64,000 nt of DNA from a virus (IMGVR_UViG_3300050821_002847:115-64114); one strand, 5' to 3'. Positions 13,719 through 39,784 are shown, counted from the stretch's first letter. Numbers and translations are program-made. Notes: generated from the sequence alone by a model not told the origin.

Positions 13719-13747
13719 CAACGTACGACTCAAACTGGAGGACGGCA

Positions 13748-23895: not shown

Positions 23896-24881
23896 AATTC
23901 CTACTCCCACAAGGAATCGGCGATAGTGTCTGGGCGATTCACAAGGTGCAGTCTATCGCGGCTAAGCTAGGCGATGGACGCATCGACATTCTTCTATCTG
24001 GTGGGACACATCAGATCGAAACCCGTGCACTAGACTTCGTGCGCCGATTCTCCTTCGTAGACTCAGCAGAGATGCGCCCTTATTCAGTACATCCTAAAGT
24101 CCCCGTGTCTCCTGAGGGCCAATATAATTACATCCAGGATGGCATGTACGACTTCCCCGACAACACCGGCTGGCGCGTCGAGCGTTGCTGCGCGCTAATG
24201 CCTAACGGACCACTCGAACGTGGTATCCGCCTTGAAGATTGGCTACCGCAATATGAGATCAACTGGGACATCTGGAAGGACTTTCGCATCTCCTCCGAGG
24301 AGACTCGCTTCGCCATCGACCTCCACGCGGCCATTGGTGACTATGCCGTGTTCTATCTCGGCCCGCTCACTGGCAACACCATCGACGGCCACAATCGCGG
24401 CCCGCTATGGACTCCGCAGGACTGGCTAGCACTCGGACGCCACGTCCACCAGCACTGCGGCCTTAAAATCGTGGTCGTTGGTGCACCCTACGACGCTTCC
24501 TATTTCGACACGATGATCGGCCCGCAACTGAATGGCGACACGCCCTTCTGGATCAACCTAATTGGCAAGACCTCCATCGGCCAACTCTACGCCGTGACCT
24601 CCCGAGCGCGATTCGTGCTCTCCTATCAATCCGGCGTGGGCATCGTCTCGACCTATCTCGGCACACCCACAGGCATCTTCTGGCGTCCACGCGGCGACTC
24701 CATCAGCCCGTCGCGCTACCTGTCTTTCGAGGAGCGTATGGCCTCGGCGTGGGTGCCCCCGAGCGTCCTCCAGTCCGGGAGACATCTGCCGCTGATATAC
24801 GGTAGGCATGGACTAGCTTATATTAAGAAGGAGATCGACGCGCACGGGTGGAATAGAAAGAGAGCATGGGGCGACATATGA
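23892..24881 (+). CDS. Glycosyltransferase (GT-B, GT9-like)
   Basis: PQGIGDSVW start; INLIGKTSI.QL...ARFVLSYQSG. Confidence 0.7.
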   Translation: MKFLLPQGIGDSVWAIHKVQSIAAKLGDGRIDILLSGGTHQIETRALDFVRRFSFVDSAEMRPYSVHPKVPVSPEGQYNYIQDGMYDFPDNTGWRVERCCALMPNGPLERGIRLEDWLPQYEINWDIWKDFRISSEETRFAIDLHAAIGDYAVFYLGPLTGNTIDGHNRGPLWTPQDWLALGRHVHQHCGLKIVVVGAPYDASYFDTMIGPQLNGDTPFWINLIGKTSIGQLYAVTSRARFVLSYQSGVGIVSTYLGTPTGIFWRPRGDSISPSRYLSFEERMASAWVPPSVLQSGRHLPLIYGRHGLAYIKKEIDAHGWNRKRAWGDI

Positions 24882-26404
24882 GACGGCTGCTCTGTATAGC
24901 ACTATGGGTGCTCGTCGCGCTCGTAGTCCCATCGGTCGCGATGGCGAACCAATCCGTGACTGGCTGGTGCGAGACTGGAGCCATCGCCGTAGTCACCTCT
25001 GGCTTGCAGAGCAGCAATCAAGTCCAAGGCTCCTTCCCACAGTGCCAAGTGGAGGTCTTGGTCCATGGCGGAGGCATCGCGACCATCTTCGCAGATAACC
25101 TCAACACGCCTCTCGCAAATCCGTTTCTCGCAAACACTATCGGGCAATTTTCATTCTATGGAAATAATGGGCGCTACGATATCGTCCTATCAGGGGGCGG
25201 GAATGGGGGACTGCCTTCCCCCGTGACCATCTCCGACGTTCTTCTGAACGACCCCTTCCAAGAGATTAGTTCTCTCTGCACCGTGGCCTTCACGCCCACG
25301 CCGACCTTTACGGCGAATCTGTGCTCGATATTCTCAATGACGCTCACTGGCAACGTAACCTCCAGCGGTATCTCCGGCGCACTCACTGGACAGGTTATCT
25401 CGTTCAATATCACAAATTGCATGGGGAGCCCCTGTACGCTTGCATGGCCGTCGAACTTCTTTAATCCTCCATTGCTGACACCTATCGCGGGAGCCTCCGA
25501 ACAATTCACCTTCGCGCTGCTCGCCGATGGCAACTGGCACTCTATGAGCGTCGGCGAGTCCATGGTCTTCGACACAGGAGTCAACGGGAACGTCCTGCGC
25601 ATCAATGGCGTCACGATAAACGCCATCACGGGCACTGGCGCGAACGTACTGGCGACCTCTCCGACCATTATCACCGCGATTCTGACTACTCCAGCCATCA
25701 GCAATCCAACGATCACCGGGACCGTCGCGGGAGGGGCGACTTACACCGCGCCGACACTCACCAGCCCGACGATCACCGGCACCGTGGCAGGCGGCGCGAG
25801 CTACACCGCGCCCACGCTCACAGGCACAATCGGAGGAGGGGCTACCTACACTAGCATAACGCTGCCGAATCCGACCTCTACGGGCACCGACGTGGGCTCC
25901 GAGACTCTCCAGAACAAGGGCCTGATGAGCGCCGCGAACGGGAACAATGTCACGCTCATCTGCCCATTTCAAGGCTCTACTGGAGCGATCACAGGCAATA
26001 GCATGGACCAGTTGCTATGGTCATGCGGCATCCCTGCCAACGTGCTTGGCCCAGGTAAGGGCATTCGTCTACGGGGCAACGTACAACATACTACCGGATC
26101 AGCCGCGCCTAATTTCAAGCTGTCTATTGGCGGAGTCACCTTCTCGGGTCTTGGTGGCACTGGCTCCACCAATGGCACTCGTTCCACCCTGATATTTGAA
26201 TTTTTCAACAATGTTGGAGTACAGAACGCGCAGACCGCTGGAGGCTACGGCTTGGACTCTTCTGGAACGTCCACCGCTGGCGTGCTGGGCATGCCTACAA
26301 CGAACTTCGCCACGGGCGGAACGATCACAATCGGAATCACTTTCAACGCCGCTAACACCAATGCAGTCACCGGGGACAGCTTTTGGGGAGAGTTAATTCA
26401 ATAG
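24878..26404 (+). CDS. Tail fibre-like protein with Sec signal peptide
   Basis: ATG 24878 (ATGA overlap); MRRLLCIALWVLVALVVPSVAMA signal; ATIFADN..TPLANPF...GQFSFY..GRYDI anchor-like domain; TLTSPTITG shaft repeats. Confidence 0.65.
   Translation: MRRLLCIALWVLVALVVPSVAMANQSVTGWCETGAIAVVTSGLQSSNQVQGSFPQCQVEVLVHGGGIATIFADNLNTPLANPFLANTIGQFSFYGNNGRYDIVLSGGGNGGLPSPVTISDVLLNDPFQEISSLCTVAFTPTPTFTANLCSIFSMTLTGNVTSSGISGALTGQVISFNITNCMGSPCTLAWPSNFFNPPLLTPIAGASEQFTFALLADGNWHSMSVGESMVFDTGVNGNVLRINGVTINAITGTGANVLATSPTIITAILTTPAISNPTITGTVAGGATYTAPTLTSPTITGTVAGGASYTAPTLTGTIGGGATYTSITLPNPTSTGTDVGSETLQNKGLMSAANGNNVTLICPFQGSTGAITGNSMDQLLWSCGIPANVLGPGKGIRLRGNVQHTTGSAAPNFKLSIGGVTFSGLGGTGSTNGTRSTLIFEFFNNVGVQNAQTAGGYGLDSSGTSTAGVLGMPTTNFATGGTITIGITFNAANTNAVTGDSFWGELIQ
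25690..25860 (+). repeat. Coding tandem repeats (PTITGTVAGGAxYTAPTL)
   Basis: About three imperfect copies in the fibre shaft. Confidence 0.7.
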
Positions 26405-26421
26405 AAGGAGAGGATACGAGA

Positions 26422-26637
26422 ATGGCACGAGAGTTCAACCGTAATCCATGGGAGCACACGGACGAATATATCGACCGGACCTATCCGTCGGGGGTCGCGG
26501 GAGCGCGGCCTAAATTAACCACGAGAATCCGCTGTGAGCCTGACTCCGAGCCATTGGAGTCCGGTAGCGAGAGCGACGACCGCATCGCTGAGTTCAATCG
26601 TCGGCTACGGGCGGGGCACGGCACCGGCGAACGCTAG
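26422..26637 (+). CDS. Hypothetical protein
   Basis: ATG 26422 after GGAGAGG. Confidence 0.6.
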   Translation: MAREFNRNPWEHTDEYIDRTYPSGVAGARPKLTTRIRCEPDSEPLESGSESDDRIAEFNRRLRAGHGTGER

Positions 26638-26796
26638 ATGCCTCTCAGTAAACACTACCAAGGCCACGGGGCCGAGGTCATGGCCTCGATGAAGAAGACT
26701 TACGGGGATGAGGACACGGCGAAGCGTGTCTTCTACGCGACTGAGAATAAGCGTAAGAATGAGAAGAAGAAAGGCCGCAAACGCTCAGGCAAATAA
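26638..26796 (+). CDS. Small basic protein (52 aa)
   Basis: MPLSKH...MKKTYG...KRVFYATENKRKNEKKKGRKRSGK; abuts both neighbours; missing from ORF track. Confidence 0.75.
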   Translation: MPLSKHYQGHGAEVMASMKKTYGDEDTAKRVFYATENKRKNEKKKGRKRSGK

Positions 26797-28218
26797 ATGG
26801 CTCTCCCCTTCAATTCATACAACTGGGCGACCTTCGCCTTCGTCAAATCGGAACTTGCCCGCCGACTCTACGACCCCGGCGAGACCTTCTGGACCGACGT
26901 AGAACTCGGCATCTATATCGTCGATGCGCTTCGCACTTGGAACGCACTGACCGGCTACTGGCGCGGCGACTTTACCTTCCCATCCCGGCAGGGAGTGACA
27001 TGGTATGACCTCACTGATGCGACAAATCTCCCGAATACGCTTCGTCCGCTCACGCTACACGATACGGACCTGTACACTCAGTTGCAATATCACCTACTGG
27101 AGCCTGTCAGTTGGAATCCTTGGACCGGAGGCTCGACTCAGTTCACTGCCGACGATCTTCTGAATGCGGTGCAGCGGCGGCGAGACGAAATTCTATCCAT
27201 CTGCGGCTGCACGATTACTCGGAGGGCTATCCCCGCTACTGCCGGACGCATCACGCTGCCCGACACGGTGCTGGACGTGCGGCGCATGGCCTATCTCCCG
27301 GCGGCGATCCTCGGCTCACCCTATGGAATTGGCATCTATGGAGCGGGACCTTATAGCTATGGCGCATACGGAGGCCAAAGCGCGTCGGTCATATGGCCCG
27401 ACGACACTTGGGCCGAGCAATCCTTCAATCGCAACTTCACCTTGCAGCCTGCTGGGACTCCCCAGACCTACCTAATGTCCACACAGCAACCCATCAGCTT
27501 CGACGTGGACCGGCCTCCGGGCGGCGCGGGAAGCTACGAGTTGCTGACCTCCGAGGCTGGGCCTGCGCTCAACATCGTCTCTGCTACGACGCTCGCTATC
27601 CCAGACGACTGGACGCACGTGGCCAAGTGGGGTGCGCTCGCGGACCTGCTCTCACGGGAATCGCTCTCGCGTGATCCGACAAGAGCAAGTTATTGTGAGC
27701 AGCGATACCGGATGGGCCTCAAGATTCTCCTGAACGCCCCGGCGCTCCTTGCAATGCGCTTGGACAACGTGCCCTTGCAGATCGACTCGGTACATGGAGC
27801 AGACCTCTACAACACTAGCTGGCAGGCGCTCGCACAGGGCAAGCCTTCGATTGCGCTACACGCGGGGCTGAATATGGTCGCGCTCGCGGCACAGCCGGAC
27901 GGCGGGACATATTCGCTGACGGCGACGGTGGTGGAGAATGCTCCAATACCAGTCGCGCCGGGAGATTCGGTGCAGGTTGGGCGGGATGATCTCGATGTAG
28001 TGCTGGACTACGCGCAGCACGTGGCGTCGTTCAAACAAGGCGGCGAGGAGTTCACGTCCACGGTGCCACTGCTCCAGCGATTCTTAAAGCAAGCGGCGGT
28101 TTATAACTCGAAGCTGCTGGAACTCGGGGAATACCAGTCCATGCTGTCGGGCCAGTCGCAGCGCGAAGAACAGATGAACCCACGCGCCACGCCTGCGCTC
28201 GCGGAGGCGACACAATAG
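26797..28218 (+). CDS. Putative tail adaptor (tubular protein A-like, duplicated fold)
   Basis: ELARRLYDP..TFWTDVEL..YI.DA N-terminus; second FTADDLLNAVQRRRDE unit. Confidence 0.55.
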   Translation: MALPFNSYNWATFAFVKSELARRLYDPGETFWTDVELGIYIVDALRTWNALTGYWRGDFTFPSRQGVTWYDLTDATNLPNTLRPLTLHDTDLYTQLQYHLLEPVSWNPWTGGSTQFTADDLLNAVQRRRDEILSICGCTITRRAIPATAGRITLPDTVLDVRRMAYLPAAILGSPYGIGIYGAGPYSYGAYGGQSASVIWPDDTWAEQSFNRNFTLQPAGTPQTYLMSTQQPISFDVDRPPGGAGSYELLTSEAGPALNIVSATTLAIPDDWTHVAKWGALADLLSRESLSRDPTRASYCEQRYRMGLKILLNAPALLAMRLDNVPLQIDSVHGADLYNTSWQALAQGKPSIALHAGLNMVALAAQPDGGTYSLTATVVENAPIPVAPGDSVQVGRDDLDVVLDYAQHVASFKQGGEEFTSTVPLLQRFLKQAAVYNSKLLELGEYQSMLSGQSQREEQMNPRATPALAEATQ

Positions 28219-28219
28219 T

Positions 28220-31200
28220 ATGCCTCCTACCTTCCAGCGTCCAGCGCAGGGATTCAGGTTCTCCTTCGGAGGCATGAAGCTCAACAGTAATCCCGACACC
28301 CTGCCACTGGACAAGTACGCTGCCGCCGTGAACATCCGTGCTCTGCTGGACTCTTCCATTCGCACTCGTCCCGGACAGACGCAGAAGTTCGCGACCGGCG
28401 GGCATACCATCACCGATCTCTCTTCATACTCGATTCTGTCCACCGATGATGCTCCTCGTTATATCGCACGGGATATTCTGGACTCCATCTGGCTAGACAA
28501 CGGCGTCGTTGTGGGCGCGCTAGTCGGCGGCGGCGCAAGCCCCGGCGCGTCGATGATTCCCTTCCGGCCTGGACAATCCCCCTCGCCTTACCTTTATATT
28601 GCCAACGGCTCCGACTACCAAAAGTTCTCCGCGCCTACCGGAGCCAACATTGTGTCCCAGTCCAAAGTTGGCATCGCGGAGCCGCAGTTCGCGCCGAACG
28701 CTGCGCCATCCGCCATGCGCCAAGCGTCCCTCGCGAGCCTCTCGTGGGCGCAGGGCGGCACCGCTGGCGCTCCTAGTTCCACCAATCGCATATCCGACAC
28801 CGCCGGGACCGTGCTTCCTGACCCGGACAACGCCGCGCTGCTAAGCGTACAGGTCGGCACCTCGCAGGCATATCAGCGGTGGATGTCCATCGCCGCCGCC
28901 GCTGGAGGAGGCACCGCCGGGTCGCAGGGACCGCTGACAGCCTCGTTCTCAGTGGACAGTGGCGGTAGTGCAACCCCTTGGACTGGAACCGGCGCGGGCG
29001 GGGGGTCGGCGAACCTCCCACAATTTGGTTTTAGCAATGGCCTAAAGATAACCAACTTCGGCTTCTCTACGATTCCAGTAGGAGCGACGATTACAGGCAT
29101 AAAGGCGGAAGTTCTCCGGCATGCCTCCTCTAATGTTGCTCTTATATCTGATCTCAGTGTCCTTATTATTAAGAATGGAGTCCTCACTGGCAACGATCAC
29201 TCTCTGGGAGGCTACTGGCCAGCAGTCGATACCTATGCTGTCTATGGAGGCCCTGGAGATACTTGGCACACCTTCTGGACCTATGCGGATATTCAGTCCC
29301 CTGGGTTCGGAGTCTCGATTGGAGCCGAGAATAACGCCTCTAGAGGCTCAGCCACCGCAACCGTGACCTCAGTGCGAATGACTGTCTATTATCTCTCGGG
29401 TGGAGTGGCCAACACCGCCGTCGTGATCCGCGATGTATTCCCTGCGCTGCCAACAGCCTTCGCCATCGCATCCATCTACTACTTCTCGGGCACTACCGGA
29501 CATTGCGTGCTCGTGCCCACCACGCTCGCTACCGGCCCTGGCACTGGGGGGCAATCTCTCTACGCCGACAACGTGCTGTCCACGCTGCGCCGGGGAGCAC
29601 TCATCAAGATAGCGTCCGAGATATGCATCGTGTGGAGCGTAAGCGTCGGGCCGGACGGTACCGTCTCCATTGAGACCTCCACGAACAGCGTCCACACCAC
29701 GTCCGATACGCTAACCAGTCTGCCGACCATCCAGACCCTCGGGCAGATATTCGCCGCGCAGACACTCTCGGAGGTCTGCATCAGTTATCAAGTTACCGTT
29801 GGCATCGGCACGCAGACTGCGACGATCACCAACCCGTTCGTAACTGGAGGGAATCCCTTCCGCCCGGACGACCTCATCTCATTTGGCATCCAAGTGGACG
29901 ACCTGACTAAGCTTACTGAATTGAAAATCCTATTCGACGTGGGCGATGGGTCATTCACGCATAATTTCTACTACTACACGGTACGACCGTCCGATATCGC
30001 CGCCGCAGTGGCCAATTCCGCCACGCAACTCGCCGCCGCGCAGACCATCGACCAGCGGGCCACGATAGACGAAGAGACCATCGCCGCAAGCGGGAATCAA
30101 CTCCACTCTGCGTCGAGCGCCATGACTGTCGCGGGCGTGGCGCAATGGACGCAGATTGTGTTCTCCATTGGCGAACTGACTCGCGTTGGTGGCGACCAAA
30201 CTAAGTCGCTTCAGAACGTCAGTAAGGTTCAGTTCCTATGGAACGCCTCCGGGACCATTAACGTATTTCACGACGGTGCCATCAATATCCTCGGCGGGTA
30301 CGACACAGACACAGGGGACATCGGAGCGCCATACCTGTACCGCGTGCGTCCGCGCTCCAGCGCCACCGGCGCGAGAGGCAACCCCTCCCCCGCGACGCGC
30401 TACGGCATCAGTCCTCGGCGCGAACAGGTGACGGTGTACCTGCCCTCGCCTGCCTACGACTCGCAGATCGACACATGGGACATATTCCGCTATGGCGGCT
30501 CGGTGACATCCTTCCGGTACATCGGCTCGACGCCATCCTCGAACGCGACCTTTATCGACAATTATTCCGACGACGCTGCCGGTGCGGGCGATGTGCTGGA
30601 CTTCGACAACTTCGAGCCGTGGCCCTCGGTGGACCTCCCCTTTAGTGCAACCGCGACGAGCGTAGTCGGCACCGTGGCGCTCGTGACGGTACCCTCGCCG
30701 ACGAACATCCTTGGCTATCTACCGGGCAACCTCGTACAACTCTCAGGCACCAACGTCTATACCCTCCGCAATCGCCCGGTGCTGATCTCTGGGACCACTT
30801 ATCGCTTAGAGTTCGAAGAGAACGCCGGAACGCAGGCCAGCGTAACCGCCGCAATCTACGAGCCTGAGTTGGCTAACCAGCATCTCCCGTATATGTTCGG
30901 CCCGGACGTATCGGGGACAGTGTTCGCGTGTGGAGACCCCTTACGCCCCGGGACGCTCTACTTCGCCAAGAATTATGCGCCGGACTCCGCACCGGATGGC
31001 TACAACGTGGAGATCACGCCCCCGAGCGAACCTCTGTTGGGCGGCGAGGTGCTCGACGGGCTCGCGTTCGTGGGGTCGCCCGAACGCTGGTGGGCCTTGT
31101 ATCCCCAGCCGGACAATCCATCCCAGCGATACAATTTCGTGCAGCAGCCGTTCCCGCGAGGACTGGCTGCGCCGTATGGACATTGCAACGATGGTGTGAG

Positions 31201-32591: not shown

Positions 32592-32603
32592 TGGGAGATA
32601 TAG

Positions 32604-33044
32604 ATGGCCAACTCAGTTCATCTGGACAAACAAGGCCCAGTGTGGCCCCTCGGCCTTATCATCGTGCCCACGCCGGGGACTCCCGTGCGTATCACGAATC
32701 TCGTGGACTCCGCCGCGACGAATGCTCCCGAGGCCGTCACCTCCGCGACCTCCGACGAGTACACCTCGCGGGCCTATGCCATCATCTTCCAAGGATTCAA
32801 GACTGGGGCCGCGCCGCCGAAGCTCGCCGCGAACACTGGGGTCGTCTATGTGGTCAAGAAGGCACTCGCGGGTGCGGGCGGAGTCAGCGACGTAGGGACG
32901 ATTATCGCCGCGATCAGAACCGGCGATCCGCCCTTCGTGCTGACGAGTGCGCCCATGAATCGCAACACTTTCAACTTATACGAGTTCTATATCGACGTTG
33001 ACACTGCGAACGATGGGTGTCTTGTGACAGCCATAATCCAATAG
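32604..33044 (+). CDS. Hypothetical virion protein
   Basis: GGGAG RBS; beta-rich 146 aa. Confidence 0.65.
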   Translation: MANSVHLDKQGPVWPLGLIIVPTPGTPVRITNLVDSAATNAPEAVTSATSDEYTSRAYAIIFQGFKTGAAPPKLAANTGVVYVVKKALAGAGGVSDVGTIIAAIRTGDPPFVLTSAPMNRNTFNLYEFYIDVDTANDGCLVTAIIQ

Positions 33045-33045
33045 T

Positions 33046-33453
33046 ATGCCCGGACCATCGACACCACTGCTCGGCCTGACAGTCCCCACCGTCGGCGGGG
33101 ATATAAACGCTTGGGGCGCGGAGCTTAACGCCGACCTCGCTCTGCTCGACGCTCTCGGTGCGGCGCAGGTGCTCATCATCAGTTCCAACACCATCGTTGC
33201 GCTCACCCAACCGGTCACGATCATTCTCGCGATCTCCGGCGGGACCGGCGTGACTATTACACTCCCCAATCCCTCCTTCAATAAAGGCCGCATGGTGTGG
33301 GTAAAAAAGACCGACACCGGCGTGGGGCCGGTAACGCTCGTCCCCGCGTCCGGCCAGATCGAGGGAGGCAATAATTATCAGTTGGTGAATCGGCTACAGT
33401 CGGTAATCCTGGCCCCGGATGCGGTCAACTGGTGGGCCTTCGCGGGACAATGA
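33046..33453 (+). CDS. Short tail fibre/adaptor-like protein (cytoplasmic)
   Basis: TPLLGLTVPTVG...WG..LN.DLALLD N-terminus and VTITLP...G....VKK domain typical of fibre proteins. Confidence 0.6.
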   Translation: MPGPSTPLLGLTVPTVGGDINAWGAELNADLALLDALGAAQVLIISSNTIVALTQPVTIILAISGGTGVTITLPNPSFNKGRMVWVKKTDTGVGPVTLVPASGQIEGGNNYQLVNRLQSVILAPDAVNWWAFAGQ

Positions 33454-36400
33454 ACATGCGACGATCATGGCTACTGCTACTCGTCATCGCACTGCTAGCG
33501 GCTATTCCACTGTCCGCGCAGCAGCGACAATTCTCGACCATTATCTCCGTGCCAGAGCCCTTACCAAATTGCACCCCCGGCGGACTCGCTGCGGAGATGC
33601 CGGTGCTGTGGGATGTCACCTCCGCTGGGTTCAAGTTCTGCTCAGGGACGAACACATGGAGCCCTTTCCCTGCCAGCAGCGGTGGCGGCGGGGCGACGAT
33701 TCAGACCAACGGGACCAGCAATGGATTGCAGAGTATCCTGAACTTTCAGAACGTTGGCGTGTTCTCATGGAGCAATCCCTCTTCCGGCAATGAGCAGCTT
33801 AACTTCTCCTCGCAGAGCGCCAATACTTTCATCGCCGCGCCGAACGGCTCCGCTGGAGTGCCCACTGCGCGAGCCATCGTGGCAGCGGACATCCCCGCCG
33901 GGACTTCCTGTGGGGCCAACCAATTCACCAACGGGATTCTCGCGGCTTTGGCTCCGTCCTGCACCCAGGTCAATTTCGTCAACTTGGCTGGAACAATCGC
34001 TCTCGGACAGACTCCCCTGACCACCAACGGCGATCTCCTATCGGTCAGCACCGGAGCACTCGCACGGGTAGGTTCAGCGGGAGGGCAGGACTTCCTGCTC
34101 CAAGGCGCGAACGCCGCCCTCCCCGTGTGGCTTGCCGTGAACAACTGTGGCAGCGCGACCCAAGCCCTGAGCTATTCGACTACCTCGCATGCCTTCGGGT
34201 GTCAGACGATCAGCGCGGGCACGGGGACGATCAACAACGCCTCACAGTTCAGCGCGGCGTACTATTCCTCCGCTGGGACTACCAATGTTATCAGTGGCAT
34301 CGCAGGGCCAACCACGCCGAGCATTCCCTTTATCTTTTGCTCCACGCCATCGGGAGGCGTAGCGACCGCTCCGGCATGGTGTATCCCGGGCGTGCCACTC
34401 AATGAGCAGACCTCCGCTAGCTACCCAGTCGTCGCCGGGGACCGCGAGAACCTGGATACGATGAACTTCGCCACTGCGGTCGCGGTATCGCTGCCGCAGG
34501 CCGGGAGCGCGGGGTTCACCAACAATTTCAACTTCGCCCTGACGAATATCGGCGCGGGACTTGTGACCGTAACCCCCGGTGCGTCGAGCACTATCAACGG
34601 GAACGCCACGCAGATCGTGCCCAAGGGATGGTTCAGCTACATCTATTCGGACTATACGAACTACTTCGCGCTGACCGCACCGGACATCTCGGACTTTCCG
34701 AATTGCGCGAATCCCTTGTCGTTTACGGCGGCGACGGGCGTGTTCAATTGCCTCGCCGGGACCAGCGGAGGGATACCGTATTTCTCGGCGGCGAACACGT
34801 GGGCGTCCTCGGGGGTGCTGACGGCGAATCTCCCGGTGATTGGCGGCGGTGCTGGCGCATCCCCCTCAGTCGGGACCGTGACGGGCAACACGACCGAGTT
34901 TGCCACGTGGACCGGCGCAACGACAGTCTCACGCTGCATCGACACCGATGCCAGCGGCAACCTACATATTACAGCGGCAGATTGCGGAGTCGGGACCACG
35001 GTGCCTATCTCGGGACTATTGCCTGCGACCGGGACAAACACCATCGACAACGCCGCATTGGAGCAGATATGGGAGTGGGAGCCTACCTCTGGGACTCCGG
35101 GACTATTACTCACCGAGTCCGCCGCAAGCACAGGGGCAGGTCCAATCTTCGGCGTGACAACAATTGCGGGCTCACTGGCTAAGGCAATGGTGATCCAAGG
35201 CACGGCACCGGCATCAGTAGCCTCCGCTCCTATAGCTCAGCCTGATTTAGCTGATTTCATTGCAGCCAAGGGCCAAGATGTGACTGGGATGAACACCGTC
35301 GGAGGTAATGGACAGGGCTTTAGTTGGACGGTAGGTGCGGCGGGCGCTTCAACAGGGACCGCGAACAGTGCCAGCGTTGGCCCTTGGAACGTGAATTTCG
35401 GTGGTATCCCCAACACCACCAAGACGCAATTCTGGGGCCAAGCTAACTTCAACTATGTGTTCCCACAGCCTTGGTCTTCGCAGGTATTCTCTTACACTGG
35501 CAATACGAACTCCGGCGTGGGCGCGTCATCCGGGGCTGGCTTGTTTCTGAGCAACACGTCAGCGGCAAATATTGGAAGCGTTCCGAACAATGGTCCGCCT
35601 CTATTTGGAACGTGGTCGCATTTGGACATCGGTGGTGTGGATACAAATGTCTCTACTCTGCTGAGCTTGGGACAGACCTGCACCTTGCCGACCAGCAACT
35701 CCTTCCCAGCTATCACTGGGGATGTTGGCGGGGCCGGAGGCTTTATCTGCAATATTTTGATGACACGAGGAATTAAGCCGGGAGTAGGCTACGCCTTCTG
35801 CTTGCAACCCGGCGGTGTTTGCATGATTGCTGATGTCGCGTCGAATCCCACCCTCGGGCAAGGCGGGAGGTTTGTAGGAACAGGTTCTAATGTGGCCCTT
35901 GGCGGCAACGTAAACTCTGGGCAGAATGGCGGCGTTATCATCCAAGCTAATAGCCCTGTAGGTTCCCAAGCTGATGTTGTGATTCCAAATCGCTCAAATG
36001 CTGGTGCCCTAAACATATTTGGTTTTACGAGCATCAATGCCGCAGGTGGCAATGGAATCCTCGACTGCGGAACAGTCTATGGCAATACATCGAGTGGTGG
36101 TTACTATACAGACCCGAGCAACACGCAGGGAGGCACGTGTATTTTCCGCGCAGGTAATGGCACCGGGACCGCGACCAGCGGCGACCTTCAGTTCCAGACT
36201 GCGCCTGGAGGTTCGTCTGGGGCTGGGCAAGACACGATGGTTACGCGAGGCGGCTGGAATGGGACGGGTGGGTATCCGGCTGCTGGAGGACTGATCGACG
36301 TAAGCCTTCCGGGGCAAATCTCTCTTACTGCTCAAACTGCGGCTATTAGCACTGCAACACTATGCTCTGGCACCACGGAAGGCCAGTGCAATCATGTTGG

Positions 36401-36725
36401 ACAGTACCTGCTCAACTTCTCGTTCGTTGAGGACGGCACCGCCTGTGGCACTCCAGGAACGGGCGGAGTGACCTTCCTCCTGACTTGGACTGATGACAAC
36501 GGCACGGTGCACTCGGCGGTGTCACTTGGGATGGATGATGCCTCGGCCATCAACACCGTATCACAAACCTTCCATTTTCAGACTTCTCTCGGAGCCGCAT
36601 GGGGCAGTGGACAGTTCGTATTCTCATCCAATGGCTCAGTAGTGCAATATGCTACAGGATACACCGCGTGTGGTGTCGGTACGGGTTCGTACCGGCTTAA
36701 GGCTACAGTGACAAGGTTGCAATAA
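33450..36725 (+). CDS. Long fibre/adhesin-like protein with Sec signal peptide
   Basis: ATG 33450 (ATGA overlap); MNMRRSWLLLLVIALLAAIPLSA-Q signal; G/T/S-rich fibre motifs; paired Cys. Confidence 0.65.
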   Translation: MNMRRSWLLLLVIALLAAIPLSAQQRQFSTIISVPEPLPNCTPGGLAAEMPVLWDVTSAGFKFCSGTNTWSPFPASSGGGGATIQTNGTSNGLQSILNFQNVGVFSWSNPSSGNEQLNFSSQSANTFIAAPNGSAGVPTARAIVAADIPAGTSCGANQFTNGILAALAPSCTQVNFVNLAGTIALGQTPLTTNGDLLSVSTGALARVGSAGGQDFLLQGANAALPVWLAVNNCGSATQALSYSTTSHAFGCQTISAGTGTINNASQFSAAYYSSAGTTNVISGIAGPTTPSIPFIFCSTPSGGVATAPAWCIPGVPLNEQTSASYPVVAGDRENLDTMNFATAVAVSLPQAGSAGFTNNFNFALTNIGAGLVTVTPGASSTINGNATQIVPKGWFSYIYSDYTNYFALTAPDISDFPNCANPLSFTAATGVFNCLAGTSGGIPYFSAANTWASSGVLTANLPVIGGGAGASPSVGTVTGNTTEFATWTGATTVSRCIDTDASGNLHITAADCGVGTTVPISGLLPATGTNTIDNAALEQIWEWEPTSGTPGLLLTESAASTGAGPIFGVTTIAGSLAKAMVIQGTAPASVASAPIAQPDLADFIAAKGQDVTGMNTVGGNGQGFSWTVGAAGASTGTANSASVGPWNVNFGGIPNTTKTQFWGQANFNYVFPQPWSSQVFSYTGNTNSGVGASSGAGLFLSNTSAANIGSVPNNGPPLFGTWSHLDIGGVDTNVSTLLSLGQTCTLPTSNSFPAITGDVGGAGGFICNILMTRGIKPGVGYAFCLQPGGVCMIADVASNPTLGQGGRFVGTGSNVALGGNVNSGQNGGVIIQANSPVGSQADVVIPNRSNAGALNIFGFTSINAAGGNGILDCGTVYGNTSSGGYYTDPSNTQGGTCIFRAGNGTGTATSGDLQFQTAPGGSSGAGQDTMVTRGGWNGTGGYPAAGGLIDVSLPGQISLTAQTAAISTATLCSGTTEGQCNHVGQYLLNFSFVEDGTACGTPGTGGVTFLLTWTDDNGTVHSAVSLGMDDASAINTVSQTFHFQTSLGAAWGSGQFVFSSNGSVVQYATGYTACGVGTGSYRLKATVTRLQ

Positions 36726-36726
36726 G

Positions 36727-39700
36727 ATGAGGCGGCTGTTCTATATATTCTCATTGCTCCTTCTACCTTGTCTTCCGGCACGTGCGCAGTTCGATGACTT
36801 TGAAGGACTAATTTCCGTCCCATGCTCCGCGAATCCGCATACGCTCGCCTTCACGACCGGAAGCCAGAGCACGACGACGCAGACTCTCACGATCACCGGA
36901 GCCAGCCCAAGCGCAACTTGGCAGGCCAATCATGCTTACTCCTTCGGATCGTGGATTCTAGACCCTGCTAAGCACTGGCAGAAGGTCATCATTGCCGGAA
37001 CGAGCGGTGGCTCTCAGCCTACCTTTAACGACTCCGGTAATGCCACCACTGATGGCACCGCTGAAGAGATGGACTGGGGACCAGCGATTGCTGTGAATGA
37101 GCCCATGCGAATTACAGGCACTGGTACGGCGATGGATTGGGCCTTCACAAACAACACCGATCTCAAGGCAGGCGAGAGCATCGTCGCGACGGTAAATCTA
37201 GGGACTGAGGTTGTCACACTCACTGCCGCAGCCTCGCATACCGTGGCGGGGCCTGTCTCTGGAACCATCGTCTCTGGGCGAGAATATATATCGCAGGCCG
37301 TCTCCACGCCCTTCGGCACCGGCCCGCAGCAATGCACCACCGAGGGCCATTGGTTCTTCGAACAGGGCATTGGTGCGATGTGCGCTAACCAGAACGCTCA
37401 GTGCAATGGCATCACGGGATTCTTGGCCAAATATGGCACTACCTGCGCCGGTGCGGCGGTCGAACAGACGCTGATCCAGTCGATGAACTTCAACTCGATT
37501 GGAGAGCTTTCCGAGACGGCATACCTGCACGACGCTGGAGGGTTGTGTGCTACCAATGTCCATCTGCCCAGCAGTCAAACCTTGAACGGGCCGGGGGCCT
37601 TATATCCAACCGCCAATCTGGGCGGCTATATATCTCAGCCAGTCAAGGACCTCCGCGATTTGACACCTCCCACTTACAATACTCAAGGCTCGGCGGAGCA
37701 TGGCGTCGTTGACGCTTTGGACCCGCGTTTAGCAACCGCTGTCTTGCAATTCGTCCAGCATTTCAACAACAGTTATATCCAGATGTACTCGTCGCCATGG
37801 ATGGGACGGCATAATAGCGATGACACCGACTATATTGGATTTTCAAACGCAGGCTGGAACTTCCATCCATCGGTGTCCCAATCAACCGACGCAGACAGCG
37901 CATATATCGTTCTGGTCTCCAACCCCCTAGCCAGTGTGACAAAGAACGTAAACTTTTATGGAGGTTCGCTGAATCTCCCATTCCTCTATGCCGACCCGGT
38001 GAATTACTTCAAAGACCCAATGGTCTCGGTACCGACGACTTGCGCGGACTACAACGATAGCACGCATGGCATCTGCTCCTTAGATAGTTACCTCGCGCAG
38101 ATCAATGGCAACTCACTGACGGCTTTGAACATACGCTATGGCTCCAGCTACTCGACCCTCCTTTCGAGTGGCACCGAATACGGCTACAGTAGCCCGGTCA
38201 GTTCTTGGTACACCAATGGCGGAGCACCCACAGTCATCTGCACCGGCACAGGCTCAAGCGCGAGTTGCACTGGAACGCTTAATATCGGAAGTATGGGTAT
38301 ATCCAGACGCTCCGTTGAGATTCTCTACACACCCAGCGGTGGAAGCCCAGTCATCGTCGGGGGAGACTTAGCCAATGGGCTTCTCTACACTGCCGGACGC
38401 TGGAAGGGCAATATTGGCGTCTGTACGGGGCTGATCGTCACGGATTCCAACGGAGACTTAGAGCAGCTTACCAAGACGGGATGCCCTGCAGGTACGACGA
38501 CCAACTCCGATCCCCCTTGGCCCTCCGCTGCGGCTTGTCCTGGAACGATCACAACCGATAGCAATAGCCTGACATGGAAGTGCTTAGGTCCAGGGCTGAC
38601 CACGACCAGCGGGGCGACGACCTCGACCGTCACATATGCCACCGGAGCCGTAACTCTAAATGCAAATCAGACGATTCCCAACGGGGCGGTTTATTCGGCA
38701 GCCTACGTAACCGACGGATGGGGACTGGGCACTGGGCTATTAGATGAAGCTGGACAGAACTCTTGGGCCAGCACCACTGGAGCCGTCTGTCCTGTGGTGC
38801 CTCCTGCTTATCAGGCGAGCCGTGCTTACACTATCACCGACGAGATCACCGATCCTACGAGTGGGTCGTGGCAAGTAGCAATGTCTAATTTCACCTCCGC
38901 CGGAGGAGTGACCTTCTCGAATGTCGCCAGCACGCTGACAAACGACGGCGCAACTACAGGCGCATGGATGAGCCTTGGCAAGGGTGTCTGTCAGACCGGA
39001 GGAGATTTCGGTGCTCCCACGATGAATACTAATCTAGGGACGGACATTGAGGCGTGGATTGCGCAAATGGCCGCGCAGTGGATGCTCTCGACGACCGGAC
39101 AGTACCGGCAGATTTTCCCCGACTTCCCTGATTTTGGCCCTGACAATACAGGCACGAGGTGGACTCCGCCACGGCAAGGGGTGCTCCAAGCAGCTAATCT
39201 ATATCTTGACGGCATATTCCATCAGACTTCGATGTTCGACCCGGCGCAGGAATACCAATCGGCTATCAAGTACCAGTTCGTAACACGATATTTCCAAGGG
39301 CCAATCGTGGCGTTTCAGACCATTCGCTCCACGCAGAGTCCGAGCGGGAATTGCTCGGTTGGCGGGACGGATTGCTTCCCGACACAGCAGGCACGTGGAG
39401 AGCATTGGTATATATCCGCGTCGAACATGCTGAATAAGCTGAGCTTCAACGGAACACAGCAGAACGCGGGAAATGTTTGGTGGGAATCTCACACCGGGGA
39501 CAGTCCATCGACGAACTGGGGACTAATTACGGCGAAGGATAATCTCTTCAATGGAGTCGAGGATGTGACAGCCACGGTCACCTGCTCGGTGCCGAGACAT
39601 TTATTTAATTGTGGAGGTGAGTCCAGTGCGTCGTGGAATGGGTCGAGCCTGTTCTCGGATGTGCTAAATCCGACCAGTGGCAACGCTCTGTGGTTCAGTG

Positions 39701-39747
39701 CTCCGATTACGCCCACATCTGGGACGCCAATAGGACGGCTTCCATAG
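36727..39747 (+). CDS. Secreted glycoside hydrolase-like protein (beta-agarase/GH50-like) with three small repeats
   Basis: MRRLFYIFSLLLLPCLPARA-Q signal; EGHWFF, MNFNSIG, ALNIRYG, QQARGEHW, NWGLIT.KDN pattern. Confidence 0.55.
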   Translation: MRRLFYIFSLLLLPCLPARAQFDDFEGLISVPCSANPHTLAFTTGSQSTTTQTLTITGASPSATWQANHAYSFGSWILDPAKHWQKVIIAGTSGGSQPTFNDSGNATTDGTAEEMDWGPAIAVNEPMRITGTGTAMDWAFTNNTDLKAGESIVATVNLGTEVVTLTAAASHTVAGPVSGTIVSGREYISQAVSTPFGTGPQQCTTEGHWFFEQGIGAMCANQNAQCNGITGFLAKYGTTCAGAAVEQTLIQSMNFNSIGELSETAYLHDAGGLCATNVHLPSSQTLNGPGALYPTANLGGYISQPVKDLRDLTPPTYNTQGSAEHGVVDALDPRLATAVLQFVQHFNNSYIQMYSSPWMGRHNSDDTDYIGFSNAGWNFHPSVSQSTDADSAYIVLVSNPLASVTKNVNFYGGSLNLPFLYADPVNYFKDPMVSVPTTCADYNDSTHGICSLDSYLAQINGNSLTALNIRYGSSYSTLLSSGTEYGYSSPVSSWYTNGGAPTVICTGTGSSASCTGTLNIGSMGISRRSVEILYTPSGGSPVIVGGDLANGLLYTAGRWKGNIGVCTGLIVTDSNGDLEQLTKTGCPAGTTTNSDPPWPSAAACPGTITTDSNSLTWKCLGPGLTTTSGATTSTVTYATGAVTLNANQTIPNGAVYSAAYVTDGWGLGTGLLDEAGQNSWASTTGAVCPVVPPAYQASRAYTITDEITDPTSGSWQVAMSNFTSAGGVTFSNVASTLTNDGATTGAWMSLGKGVCQTGGDFGAPTMNTNLGTDIEAWIAQMAAQWMLSTTGQYRQIFPDFPDFGPDNTGTRWTPPRQGVLQAANLYLDGIFHQTSMFDPAQEYQSAIKYQFVTRYFQGPIVAFQTIRSTQSPSGNCSVGGTDCFPTQQARGEHWYISASNMLNKLSFNGTQQNAGNVWWESHTGDSPSTNWGLITAKDNLFNGVEDVTATVTCSVPRHLFNCGGESSASWNGSSLFSDVLNPTSGNALWFSAPITPTSGTPIGRLP

Positions 39748-39784
39748 GGGAGAATAGAGGTATAGAATGCGCGGAGGAGGGAAT

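What the first reader, a model, noticed from the sequence alone, without database searches (positions are those of the whole stretch)
24878..39747. Tail fibre/depolymerase-like proteins carry Sec signal peptides and strictly paired cysteines: virion appendages folded in the periplasm?
Seen: three large genes inside the tail module (24878, 33450, 36727) begin with classic signal peptides (MRR + hydrophobic core + AxA/xxA site), and the first two starts are fixed by ATGA overlaps. By my count the mature chains hold 8, 22 and 20 Cys, nearly all as neighbouring pairs. The 1356-aa signal-less nozzle has only 7, scattered. The 24878 protein has a tailspike-anchor-like domain directly after the signal. 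Established: tailed virions assemble in the reducing cytoplasm and their fibres normally lack signal peptides. Inference: these appendages are exported, disulfide-folded in the periplasm and added to virions at lysis (perhaps via the short cytoplasmic adaptor 33046..33453), or they are host-surface adhesins/enzymes. Either would be an unusual assembly route.
Basis: partly seen in the sequence, partly recalled or inferred. Interest (0 to 1): 0.88.

Follow-up and report, generated by a model that had tools for sequence, protein, structure and literature searches.

The report
Phage tail fibres carrying export signals
A short-tailed soil phage, like its cultured relatives that infect Acidobacteria, puts ordinary bacterial secretion signals and paired cysteines on its fibre-like proteins, so these parts probably fold outside the cytoplasm where the rest of the particle is built.

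Summary
The ORFs at 24878, 33450 and 36727 start with Sec-type leaders, and the mature chains hold 8, 22 and 20 Cys.

Export and disulfide folding are well supported:
- 102 of 119 homologues of the 33450 protein carry a leader, and 99 of those 102 have an even Cys count.
- The ~100-aa domain behind the leader of the 24878 protein also occurs without a leader at the same place in related phages.
- All 21 leader-bearing copies have a Cys pair in that domain. None of the 9 leaderless copies has it.

The phage belongs to one podovirus family with the cultured Tunturiibacter phages Tunturi 1 and 2. In Tunturi 1, gp12, gp13, gp14 and gp17 all have leaders and even Cys counts.

The 36727 protein is a GH50-like glycosidase of a secreted type.

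Whether the exported proteins join the virion is untested. An anchor-like domain and MS-detected leader-bearing proteins in Cellulophaga phage phi18:3 make it plausible. I found no paper describing this route in 8 searches. The scan has noted the same pattern on other DNA many times.

The parts
23892..24881 (+). GT9-like glycosyltransferase gene, translationally coupled (ATGA) to the first leader-bearing gene
   Evidence: Pfam Glyco_transf_9, E 1.2e-5. The ORF ends at 24881 and overlaps the ATG at 24878. A homologue sits directly upstream of the leader-bearing 24878-type gene in L001, L002, L003, L004, L044 and L047.
24878..26404 (+). SP1: fibre-like protein of 508 aa. Leader = residues 1-23 (24878-24946). 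Conserved anchor-like N-domain = residues 24-126 (24947-25255). PTxTGTVxGGAxYT-type fibre repeats follow. 8 Cys in the mature chain.
   Evidence: alignment with leaderless homologues; leader and Cys pair go together; model confident only for residues ~25-220; fold matches.
26797..28218 (+). Conserved leaderless tail protein next to the nozzle-like gene (adaptor-like; function inferred from position only)
   Evidence: No leader, 3 Cys. Homologue beside the nozzle-like gene in 19 of the 21 related loci examined; none was listed in L006 or L046. Also present in Tunturi_1 as gp30, 30% identity. No Pfam or PHROG hit.
28220..32290 (+). Nozzle-like conserved virion protein, 1356 aa, leaderless, 7 Cys. 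The stretch at about residues 225-400 or 225-520, depending on the relative, is not conserved.
Evidence: 22 related loci, 37-77% identity. BLAST segments skip that stretch. Tunturi_1 gp31, 39% identity.
32604..33044 (+). Small conserved leaderless protein (146 aa) that usually lies just before leader-bearing genes
   Evidence: tblastn match in 17 of the 21 related loci, and in Tunturi_1 (gp33). Directly followed by leader-bearing ORFs in L001, L002, L007, L044, L045 and L048.
33046..33453 (+). Small leaderless, Cys-free protein (135 aa), strictly linked to the SP2-type gene; candidate cytoplasmic partner (adaptor or export chaperone, inferred)
   Evidence: 0 Cys and no leader. A homologue is present in 4 of 21 related loci (L001, L003, L004, L047), each time directly followed by an SP2-type N-terminal region. 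No Pfam or PHROG hit. Only one weak longer relative, P0318.
33450..36725 (+). SP2: long modular fibre-like protein, 1091 aa. Leader = residues 1-23 (33450-33518). 22 Cys, including five C-x13-17-C loops. A module at residues 433-511 is widespread in fibre-like proteins. A C-terminal ~145-aa domain is shared with other leader-bearing proteins.
   Evidence: Leaderless proteins sharing its modules hit PHROG tail-fibre families. C-terminal domain found in L043 and L056.
36727..39747 (+). SP3: exported GH50-like glycoside-hydrolase-type protein, 1006 aa. Leader = residues 1-20 (36727-36786). 20 Cys in the mature chain.
   Evidence: 363 homologues at E <= 1e-3. Model pLDDT 85.4, pTM 0.88. Foldseek matches to GH50 exo-beta-agarases at E 4e-6 to 3e-5 over about 180-208 columns.
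39767..40219 (+). Small protein (150 aa) with an N-terminal membrane anchor or leader, just behind the leader-bearing genes; role unknown
   Evidence: A small protein with a similar N-terminus occupies the same place in L044. No Pfam hit.
49050..49511 (+). Leaderless endolysin (context: lysis should need a membrane lesion made by a holin)
   Evidence: Pfam Peptidase_M15_4, E 5.1e-8, and VanY. No leader.

Best explanation
The window is a near-complete genome of an uncultured podovirus. It belongs to the same family as the cultured Tunturiibacter (Acidobacteriota) phages Tunturi 1 and 2.

Its capsid, portal, nozzle-like and ejection proteins are ordinary leaderless proteins made in the cytoplasm. 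Its variable fibre-like proteins SP1 (24878) and SP2 (33450) and the glycosidase-like SP3 (36727) are sent through the Sec pathway. There they lose a 20-23-residue leader and fold with disulfide bonds in the periplasm.

I think SP1, and probably SP2 with its small partner 33046, most likely remain virion appendages. They would dock on finished particles once the holin lesion and endolysin join cytoplasm and periplasm at lysis. SP3 probably acts as an exported sugar-cutting enzyme, free or bound to a fibre.

Shown: the leaders, the Cys patterns, and their conservation and co-variation. Inferred: export, disulfides, late docking.
For: 1. Phage identity. The window has a terminase, a portal and a major head protein. 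Tunturi_1 proteins match window proteins at 33% (terminase), 33% (portal), 32% (major head) and 39% (nozzle-like) identity, in the same gene order.

2. Leaders. All three proteins pass the leader rule. So do 102 of 119 homologues of SP2, 30 of 43 of SP1 and 77 of 149 listed homologues of SP3. 18 of 21 related loci hold at least one leader-bearing ORF of 300 aa or more, against 5 flagged among 119 core proteins.

3. Oxidative folding.
- 99 of 102 leader-bearing SP2 homologues have an even mature Cys count (binomial p = 7e-26).
- Leaderless relatives P0069, P0074, P0076, P0094, P0105, P0115, P0119 and P0124 hold 0-3 Cys.
- SP1 homologues hold a median 1.75 Cys per 100 aa with a leader and 0.22 without (p = 8e-6).
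- Tunturi_1 gp12, gp13, gp14 and gp17 hold 20, 10, 20 and 32 mature Cys.

4. Same domain with and without a leader. Leaderless P0131-P0133 start at the residue right after SP1's predicted cleavage site, and they have V and A where SP1 has C31 and C56. Of 31 sequences with this domain, 21 with a leader all have both Cys, and 0 of 9 without a leader do.

5. Virion role.
- Leaderless copies of the domain lie directly after the 16956-type gene (L048, L055) or beside the nozzle-like gene (L051, L052) in relatives.
- The domain is as conserved as the nozzle-like protein: 51-57% against 37-56% in the same loci.
- On the nozzle tree the leader state needs at least 3 changes. L055 (no leader) and L056 (leader) are sisters.
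- Fold matches go to podophage tail-complex chains and tailspike N-termini, and to 137 viral proteins including tail fibres and tailspikes.
- Leaderless relatives hit PHROG tail-fibre families, and leader-bearing P0081 has the Peptidase_S74 fibre chaperone.

6. Precedent. Cellulophaga phage phi18:3 gp085, gp086 and gp087 are annotated as structural proteins 'based on experimental MS/MS proteomics'. All three begin with Sec-type leaders.

7. Classic work on P22 showed that tailspikes can be added to spike-less heads in vitro (my recall, not from a call). Late docking is therefore physically possible.
Against: - No SignalP run and no experiment; my leader rule is home-made.
- No model coordinates, so Cys-Cys distances are untested.
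- Spacing of Cys in the window proteins alone is only marginal (p = 0.055-0.096).
- Even counts are less clean for SP1 homologues (73%) and SP3 homologues (56 of 77).
- Counter-examples to 'no leader, few Cys': L051_5830 (727 aa, no leader, 10 Cys), P0017 (29 Cys) and P0093 (11 Cys).
- Fold matches of the N-domain are middling. Z is 5.6-7.8 beside generic beta-sandwiches of equal Z, and Foldseek against PDB gave no hit at E <= 0.001.
- The nozzle-like protein has a non-conserved insert that could itself bind the receptor, so the phage may not need these proteins on the particle.
- SP3 has no anchor-like domain and belongs to a big family of secreted-type proteins.
- There is no virion proteome for Tunturi 1/2.
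- The phi18:3 MS proteins are from an unrelated phage, are Cys-poor, and could be co-purified contaminants.
Confidence: 0.5

Rival explanations
1. The proteins are exported but are not virion parts. They act in the periplasm or on the surface of the infected cell. Possible roles: cutting the host's exopolysaccharide or receptor so that progeny escape and are not trapped on debris; masking receptors against superinfection; or serving as adhesins like the Bdellovibrio MAT fibres. The anchor-like domain would then be a relic, or would bind a cell structure.
For: - The Bdellovibrio MAT family shows that tail-fibre-like trimers with a signal peptide followed by a conserved ~130-aa beta-rich domain can be cell-surface adhesins (PMC10769870, passages read).
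- SP3 is GH50-like, has no anchor-like domain, and has 363 homologues, many with the same leader and post-leader motif. Weak matches occur in 13 of 201 genomes of the class of a Terracidiphilus MAG.
- About 5% of prophage CAZymes carry signal peptides and are read as auxiliary enzymes (PMC13507307, passages read).
- The nozzle-like protein's variable insert could be the receptor binder.
Against: - No leaderless fibre or spike candidate remains in the window's structural module, nor in Tunturi_1 among the 22 proteins checked.
- The SP1 N-domain is kept at 51-57% identity to leaderless copies that sit in the fibre slot of relatives. Its leader state switches at least 3 times on the family tree. 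That is hard to square with repeated loss and regain of a virion role.
- Leader-bearing proteins were detected by MS/MS in phi18:3 virions, according to the record's notes.
Confidence: 0.33
2. Both fates occur. Part of each protein stays free in the periplasm or medium as a soluble enzyme or adhesin, and part is bound to particles. Many phage depolymerases are known in free and virion-bound form (own knowledge).
For: The same evidence as for export, together with the anchor-like domain on SP1 and the lack of one on SP3.
Against: No data bear on amounts or location. This reading overlaps with the best explanation and is not a clean alternative to it.
Confidence: 0.1
3. The N-terminal hydrophobic stretches are not used as cleaved export signals. 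The proteins would fold in the cytoplasm, join the particle there as usual, and their cysteines would oxidise only after release. The stretch could be a membrane tether or a buried helix.
For: No experimental or SignalP evidence for cleavage. The home-made rule flags 5 of 119 core proteins. SP3's leader ranks only 7th of 58 ORFs by hydrophobicity.
Against: - The stretches have the full n-h-c layout, with cleavage-type sites, in 102 of 119 and 30 of 43 homologues.
- Leaderless homologues begin exactly after the predicted cleavage site, so the stretch is a separable add-on.
- Cys pairs appear only with it: 21 of 21 against 0 of 9. Even Cys counts occur in 99 of 102. Both are as expected for proteins folded by a periplasmic disulfide system.
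Confidence: 0.07

Closest known systems
Tunturiibacter phages Tunturi 1 and 2 (PP887698, PP885685; Microbiome 2025, PMC11924767): gp12, gp13, gp14 ('tail spike protein') and gp17 ('virion structural protein')
   Same: Same phage family and gene order (terminase 33%, portal 33%, major head 32%, nozzle-like 39% identity). The paper reports podovirus particles by electron microscopy (passages read). gp12 has SP1's leader plus N-domain with the Cys pair. All four large fibre- or spike-like proteins have leaders and even mature Cys counts of 20, 10, 20 and 32.
   Different: The bodies of the proteins are unrelated to the window's apart from short modules. I saw no GT/MT cassette among the annotated genes between gp11 and gp12. 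The paper's main text does not mention signal peptides or proteomics; its supplements were not visible to me.
Leaderless tail fibres of the same phage family (L048 2331-3653, L055 705-2405, L051 5830-8013 and 9362-9991, L052 7937-9442; proteins P0131-P0133)
   Same: The same ~100-aa N-terminal domain (42-57% identity), the same place next to the 16956-type or nozzle-like gene, and the same PTxTGTVxGGAxYT-type repeats in P0131-P0133.
   Different: They have no leader and no Cys pair in the domain (0 of 9). Most are Cys-poor (0-3 Cys), except L051 5830-8013 with 10.
N-terminal particle-binding domains of podovirus tailspikes and fibres (P22 gp9N 8eb7/2vnl, Sf6 gp14N 7sg7, small chains of the cyanopodophage Pam1 7eeq_A and Pan3 9vyg tail complexes)
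   Same: SP1 residues ~22-129 superpose with Z 5.6-7.8 and Foldseek E 5e-3 to 1.3e-2 at probability 0.99-1.00. Residues ~127-228 resemble the N-terminal parts of tailspikes: Solidus gp83 (Z 7.8) and CBA120 TSP4 (Z 7.5).
   Different: Those proteins have no signal peptide (own knowledge). The scores are middling, and generic beta-sandwiches score the same. There are no sequence matches to any PDB chain.
Cellulophaga phage phi18:3 (KC821620) gp085, gp086, gp087
   Same: Proteins of a tailed podovirus that begin with Sec-type leaders and are annotated 'structural protein, based on experimental MS/MS proteomics analysis'. This is the only record-level evidence I saw that leader-bearing proteins turn up in virions.
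   Different: Unrelated phage family (Pachyviridae) with a Bacteroidota host. The proteins hold 0, 1 and 3 Cys, so there is no disulfide theme. I did not test homology to the window's proteins.
Bdellovibrio bacteriovorus MAT (mosaic adhesive trimer) fibres (Nat Microbiol 2024, PMC10769870)
   Same: [quoted passage not shown] The window's proteins have the same layout. Their leader-bearing relative P0081 has Peptidase_S74.
   Different: MAT proteins are encoded by a cell and sit on the predator's surface. Here the genes lie in the virion operon of a phage. Sequence relatedness was not tested.
GH50 exo-beta-agarases (4bq2/4bq5, 6xj9, 5t3b, 5z6p): for SP3 only
   Same: Foldseek E 4e-6 to 3e-5, probability 1.00, over about 180-208 columns of the barrel.
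   Different: Only about a fifth of SP3 is covered (TM-score on the query 0.13-0.14), at 12-16% identity. No Pfam family matched. Catalytic residues were not checked. SP3 has large inserted beta-domains and 20 Cys.
Coat proteins of filamentous phages (Ff pIII, pVIII)
   Same: Virion proteins made with Sec-type signal peptides and matured outside the cytoplasm (own knowledge; the library papers treat this as the known case).
   Different: Filamentous phages assemble at the membrane and are extruded without lysis. Here the particle is a tailed, DNA-packaging, lytic-type virion built in the cytoplasm.

Membership tests
Sec (type I) signal peptide | Basic n-region, uncharged hydrophobic h-region of 8-18 residues, small residues at -3 and -1 | tested here: met
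   All three proteins pass the rule, with cleavage after residues 23, 23 and 20. No lipobox Cys at +1 and no long twin-arginine n-region (read).
Sec (type I) signal peptide | Positive call by a trained predictor (SignalP) and cleavage in vivo | not testable with these tools
   No SignalP in the tool set and no proteomic data.
Podovirus tail fibre or tailspike | N-terminal particle-binding domain of the kind seen in solved tail complexes | tested here: inconclusive
   Z 5.6-7.8 to P22 gp9N, Sf6 gp14N and Pam1/Pan3 tail-complex chains, but generic sandwiches score the same. Foldseek against PDB: best E 4.9e-3. BFVD: 137 hits at E <= 1e-3, including tail fibres and tailspikes.
Podovirus tail fibre or tailspike | Gene in the tail module, with orthologous fibres at the same place in relatives | tested here: met
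   SP1-type genes lie between the 16956-type gene and the nozzle-like gene. Leaderless copies occupy this place in L048, L055, L051 and L052.
Podovirus tail fibre or tailspike | Sequence relatives in recognised tail-fibre families | tested here: inconclusive
   The window proteins hit no PHROG or Pfam family. Relatives sharing their modules do: P0069, P0105, P0136, P0137 and P0141 hit tail-fibre PHROGs, and P0081 and P0136 hit Peptidase_S74.
Podovirus tail fibre or tailspike | Presence in the purified virion | not testable with these tools
   No proteome exists for this phage or for Tunturi 1/2 in the text I could read.
Disulfide-bonded periplasmic or extracellular protein | Even number of Cys; Cys gained and lost in pairs | tested here: met
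   Mature counts 8, 22 and 20. 99 of 102 leader-bearing SP2 homologues have even counts. Paired columns C31/C56 and C134/C149 in SP1, and five pairs in SP3. 21 of 21 against 0 of 9 for the N-domain pair.
Disulfide-bonded periplasmic or extracellular protein | Paired Cys within bonding distance in a structure | not testable with these tools
Glycoside hydrolase family 50 (SP3) | (beta/alpha)8 barrel like solved GH50 enzymes | tested here: inconclusive
   Foldseek E 4e-6 to 3e-5 but only ~180-208 columns of 1006 residues, with TM-score on the query 0.13-0.14.
Glycoside hydrolase family 50 (SP3) | Catalytic acid/base and nucleophile glutamates in place | not tested
   D673 is invariant and E674 nearly invariant in 47 sequences, but their place in the barrel could not be checked without coordinates.
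Bdellovibrio MAT fibres | Signal peptide, then a conserved beta-rich N-domain, then a trimeric fibre with a variable tip | tested here: met
   SP1 has the layout: leader, then a conserved beta-sandwich at residues 24-126, then a repeat region and a variable end. This is a likeness of layout only.
Bdellovibrio MAT fibres | Encoded by a cell and shown on its surface; sequence relatedness to MAT N-domains | not tested
   The genes here are phage-borne. No MAT sequence was compared.

The most novel reading that the evidence does not exclude
A whole family of podoviruses of Acidobacteriota, including the cultured Tunturi 1 and 2, builds its particle in two compartments. Head and tail core form in the cytoplasm. 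The host-recognition fibres and spikes go through Sec and are disulfide-bonded in the periplasm. The two meet only when the holin lesion opens the inner membrane. The leader state can be switched on and off in evolution without changing the docking domain.
Probability: 0.5. Interest if true: 0.9.

Novelty: new variant of a known kind. Interest (0 to 1): 0.78.

Why it matters
Textbook accounts have all parts of a tailed phage made and joined in the reducing cytoplasm, which fits the low cysteine content of most fibres. If these fibres really mature in the periplasm, several things follow.

- Phages can use the host's secretion and disulfide machinery to harden their exposed parts. That may pay off in acid, enzyme-rich soils.
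- Particle assembly would have a last step outside the cytoplasm.
- Infectivity would depend on host Sec and Dsb functions.
- Annotation would change: leader-bearing 'auxiliary' sugar-cutting genes in soil viromes may be virion or lysis gear and not metabolic genes.
- Host-range work would change: receptor-binding proteins made for study would need periplasmic expression.

This window adds a clean natural comparison, the same docking domain with and without leader and Cys pair. It also links the pattern to cultured phages on which it can be tested directly.

Tried and rejected
- Pfam and PHROG scans of the three proteins and six neighbours gave nothing except GT9 for 23892-24881.
- PDB sequence searches with SP2 and with the SP1 alignment found nothing.
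- The ESM Atlas search with SP2 gave only scores below 0.9, so I did not use it.
- To reach the contigs of the leaderless homologues P0131 and P0133 I tried look-up of encoding contigs (closed), then search for related loci in viral contigs and in metagenomes. These gave only partial matches, not the wanted contigs. The leaderless copies in L045, L048, L051, L052 and L055 served instead.
- Prophage search: the nozzle alignment found no relative in one genome per species, so I found no lysogen.
- The SP3 alignment of 47 sequences was too diverse to scan with. A 5-sequence one gave one weak hit in a Terracidiphilus MAG.
- A search for fused forms of the 33046 protein found only one weak, internal match (P0318). 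I dropped the idea that 33046 plus 33450 is a split fibre.
- Internal repeats in SP2 are weak (E 0.001-0.1). I describe C-x13-17-C loops, not repeat domains.
- The idea of a leaderless isoform from an internal start was dropped. SP1 has Met22 just before the cleavage site, but SP2, SP3 and the homologues have none.
- Lipoprotein and Tat signals were rejected from the sequences: no lipobox Cys at +1, and short n-regions.
- Eight literature searches turned up no paper describing Sec-exported fibres of tailed phages. The library lacks most subscription journals, and supplements were closed.
- The tree is the quick one. The careful search did not finish in the time allowed.

Full report
WHAT IS THERE

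The window is almost the whole genome of a virus record of 64,114 bases. On the plus strand it carries:
- a terminase at 6835-9054 (phrog_2, E 1.2e-10);
- a portal at 9745-11817 (phrog_156, E 6.8e-5);
- a major head protein at 13631-15007 (phrog_9953, E 1.2e-9);
- a block of methyltransferase and glycosyltransferase genes;

In the tail region the three ORFs of the finding are real:
- 24878-26404, 508 aa, here SP1;
- 33450-36725, 1091 aa, SP2;
- 36727-39747, 1006 aa, SP3.

The starts at 24878 and 33450 overlap the stop of the gene before by ATGA.

THE LEADERS

Each protein starts with basic residues, an uncharged hydrophobic core and small residues at -3/-1. A simple rule of my own puts cleavage after residues 23, 23 and 20. 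There is no lipobox and no long twin-arginine n-region, so these are plain Sec-type leaders.

I had no SignalP. The rule flags 5 of 119 conserved core proteins in related phages, which gives a rough false-positive rate. On a cruder hydrophobicity measure SP2 and SP1 rank first and second of 58 ORFs, while SP3 ranks seventh.

THE CYSTEINES

Spacing alone is weak evidence for pairing. Random placement gives gaps as short with p = 0.055, 0.069 and 0.096.

Comparison with homologues is much stronger.
- Of 119 homologues of SP2, 102 carry a leader by my rule, and 99 of these 102 have an even number of Cys after the leader (binomial p = 7e-26).
- Of the 17 not called, several are cut or mis-started leaders (P0007, P0020, P0035, P0038, P0044, P0109).
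- Eight clearly leaderless ones (P0069, P0074, P0076, P0094, P0105, P0115, P0119, P0124) hold only 0-3 Cys.
- P0017 and P0093 are exceptions, with 29 and 11 Cys.
- For SP1, 30 of 43 homologues have a leader. The median is 1.75 Cys per 100 aa with a leader and 0.22 without (p = 8e-6). The even fraction there is only 73%.
- For SP3, 77 of 149 listed homologues have a leader (many of the rest are fragments), and 56 of the 77 have even counts.

In alignments, consecutive Cys come and go together.
- In SP1, C31/C56 give phi 0.89 and C134/C149 give phi 1.0.
- In SP3, C33/C203, C240/C274, C505/C514, C688/C755 and C953/C962 are each other's best partners.
- C439 and C450 are nearly invariant.
- Four other consecutive pairs of SP3 are uninformative or ambiguous.

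THE KEY COMPARISON

Searching with the nozzle-like protein brought in 22 related viral loci at 37-77% identity. I left out L005 as a near-copy of L004.

In these loci the conserved genes have no leader. These are the 26797-type, nozzle-like, 32277-type, 32604-type, acetyltransferase, 40605-type and Cys-free late genes. The large variable genes around them mostly do have one: 18 of 21 loci hold at least one leader-bearing ORF of 300 aa or more.

The ~100-aa domain that follows SP1's leader is found across the family in two forms.
- Of 31 sequences with the domain, 21 have a leader in front, and all 21 have both Cys (C31 and C56 in SP1 numbering). At least one pair, P0126 and the L001 gene, is the same gene with different starts.
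- Nine start directly with the domain, and none of them has the pair. Two keep a single Cys.
- One partial sequence (P0134) could not be scored.
- The leaderless proteins P0131-P0133 begin at the very residue after SP1's predicted cleavage site and have V and A in place of the two Cys.

The leaderless copies sit where a fibre gene is expected: right after the 16956-type gene in L048 and L055, and beside the 26797-type or nozzle-like gene in L051 and L052. The domain is as well kept as the nozzle-like protein itself (51-57% against 37-56% identity in the same loci).

On a quick maximum-likelihood tree of the nozzle-like protein, the leader state of this gene needs at least three changes on well-supported branches. 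L055 (no leader) and L056 (leader) are sisters. The careful tree search did not finish.

WHAT THE PROTEINS ARE

None of the three hits a Pfam or PHROG family, but their relatives do.
- Leaderless proteins that share modules with SP1 or SP2 hit tail-fibre PHROGs (P0069, P0105, P0136, P0137, P0141).
- P0136, and the leader-bearing P0081, carry the Peptidase_S74 fibre chaperone.

SP1. The model is confident only for residues ~25-220 (mean pLDDT 58.6).
- Residues 22-129 resemble small chains of the Pam1 and Pan3 cyanopodophage tail complexes and the head-binding domains of the P22 and Sf6 tailspikes, at Z 5.6-7.8.
- Residues 127-228 resemble the N-terminal parts of the Solidus gp83 and CBA120 TSP4 tailspikes, at Z 7.5-7.8.
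- Generic beta-sandwiches score the same, and Foldseek against PDB gave no hit at E <= 0.001 (best 4.9e-3, Pan3).
- Against predicted viral structures there are 137 hits at E <= 0.001, among them tail fibres, tailspikes and pectate-lyase-type proteins of uncultured tailed phages.

Together with the gene position, I read the domain as the particle-binding end of a fibre, with moderate confidence.

SP2. This is a long modular protein. Its module at residues 433-511 recurs in most of its homologues. Its last ~145 residues recur at the end of other leader-bearing proteins. It holds five loops of the form C-x13-17-C.

SP3. This protein is different. A good model (pLDDT 85.4, pTM 0.88) matches GH50 exo-beta-agarases at E 4e-6 to 3e-5, but only over about 180-208 columns. 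It has 363 homologues at E <= 0.001, many with a leader followed by a shared short motif. I saw no anchor-like domain. It looks like an exported sugar-cutting enzyme of a cellular type that the phage carries.

THE SMALL PARTNER

The leaderless, Cys-free 135-aa ORF at 33046-33453 has homologues in 4 of the 21 loci (L001, L003, L004, L047). Each time it is followed at once by a gene with SP2's N-terminal region. Nothing shows whether it is a docking adaptor on the particle or a cytoplasmic helper of export. A search for longer, fused forms gave only one weak internal match.

CULTURED RELATIVES AND HOST

SP1's leader and N-domain match a protein of Tunturiibacter phages Tunturi_1 and Tunturi_2, whose host is Tunturiibacter psychrotolerans X5P2, Acidobacteriota.

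Tunturi_1 has the same gene order. Its terminase, portal, major head, 16956-type, 26797-type, nozzle-like and 32604-type proteins match the window's at 30-39% identity. So the window's phage belongs to this family and most likely infects Acidobacteriota (inference).

In Tunturi_1, gp12, gp13, gp14 (annotated tail spike protein) and gp17 (annotated virion structural protein) all begin with leaders. They hold 20, 10, 20 and 32 Cys after them. The core proteins have none.

The paper that describes these phages shows podovirus particles. Its main text has no occurrence of 'signal peptide', 'SignalP' or 'mass spectrometry'.

DO THE EXPORTED PROTEINS JOIN THE VIRION?

This is the open step.

For it:
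- the conserved docking-type domain that switches between leader and no leader within one family;
- the lack of any leaderless fibre or spike candidate in the window or among the 22 Tunturi_1 proteins checked;
- a lead from earlier notes of this scan that I checked myself: in the GenBank record of Cellulophaga phage phi18:3, gp085, gp086 and gp087 are 'structural protein, annotation based on experimental MS/MS proteomics analysis', and all three begin with Sec-type leaders.

Late docking is physically possible. Tailspikes of P22 can be added to spike-less heads in vitro (my recall). The window's endolysin at 49050-49511 has no leader, so lysis should start with a holin lesion that joins cytoplasm and periplasm (inference).

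Against it:
- there is no proteome for this family;
- the phi18:3 proteins are unrelated, Cys-poor and could be contaminants;
- the nozzle-like protein has a non-conserved insert that might bind the receptor itself;
- tail-fibre-like trimers with a signal peptide and a conserved N-domain are known as cell-surface adhesins in Bdellovibrio (PMC10769870, passages read);
- leader-bearing sugar-cutting enzymes of prophages are usually read as auxiliary genes (PMC13507307, passages read).

I put export at about 0.9. I put the virion-joining reading at about 0.5, a purely non-virion role at about 0.33, and an unused leader at about 0.07.

COMPARISON WITH WHAT IS KNOWN, AND NOVELTY

The proteins are tail-fibre or tailspike-type proteins (SP1, SP2) and a glycosidase (SP3), all known kinds. 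What is unusual is the Sec leader and the disulfide-type Cys pattern on the host-recognition gear of a tailed phage.

In eight full-text searches I found no paper describing this route for tailed phages. The library lacks most subscription journals. Filamentous phages are the known case of leader-bearing virion proteins, but they assemble at the membrane (own knowledge).

The scan itself has noted the pattern many times on other DNA: 265 notes in at least 228 genomes hold the search words, and all eight shown were of this kind. I did not test those notes. They did not enter my scores, apart from the phi18:3 lead, which I checked.

VERDICT

- This window adds two things. One is a clean within-family contrast: the same docking domain, with leader and Cys pair present together or absent together. 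The other is a direct link to cultured phages on which the question can be settled with virion mass spectrometry.

Noticed in passing
window 17801-24881; L001, L002, L003, L004, L044, L047: A GT9-like glycosyltransferase gene lies directly upstream of the leader-bearing SP1-type gene in the window and in 6 related loci. It is missing next to the leader-bearing copies in L007 and L056. It was not seen in the 5 loci with leaderless copies within the 10-kb flanks. One idea, untested, is that the fibre is sugar-tagged in the cytoplasm before export, as TibC does for TibA (own knowledge).
   Followed up: partly
window 28220-32290, residues about 225-520: The nozzle-like protein has a stretch that is not conserved among relatives, while both flanks are 45-63% identical. 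It could be a variable, surface-exposed or receptor-binding insert.
   Followed up: no
window 39767-40219; L044 16418-16828: A small protein with an N-terminal membrane anchor or leader sits between the last leader-bearing gene and the acetyltransferase gene, in the window and in L044. It has no family hit. It could be a periplasmic helper of the fibres or a lysis protein.
   Followed up: no
window 46328-46705 and 47225-48034: A 125-aa ORF with a leader-like N-terminus lies close to a papain-family cysteine protease gene (Peptidase_C1, E 6.4e-10). The leaderless M15 endolysin is at 49050-49511. The lysis cassette is not worked out.
   Followed up: no
L064 (Tunturi_1) 19025-19474: Tunturi_1 gp16 (149 aa) also begins with a leader and lies between the leader-bearing gp14 and gp17. 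Small leader-bearing partners may be part of the same system.
   Followed up: no
L051 5830-8013: This fibre has the SP1-type N-domain, no leader and no Cys pair in the domain, yet holds 10 Cys in 727 aa. It is an exception to the rule that leaderless forms are Cys-poor.
   Followed up: no
window 36727-39747, residues 60-117: This stretch of SP3 is modelled with pLDDT below 50. Yet it matches repeated short stretches, up to 13 per protein, in other large proteins (P0188, P0194, P0198, P0238). It is a small repeat module inserted near the N-terminus.
   Followed up: no
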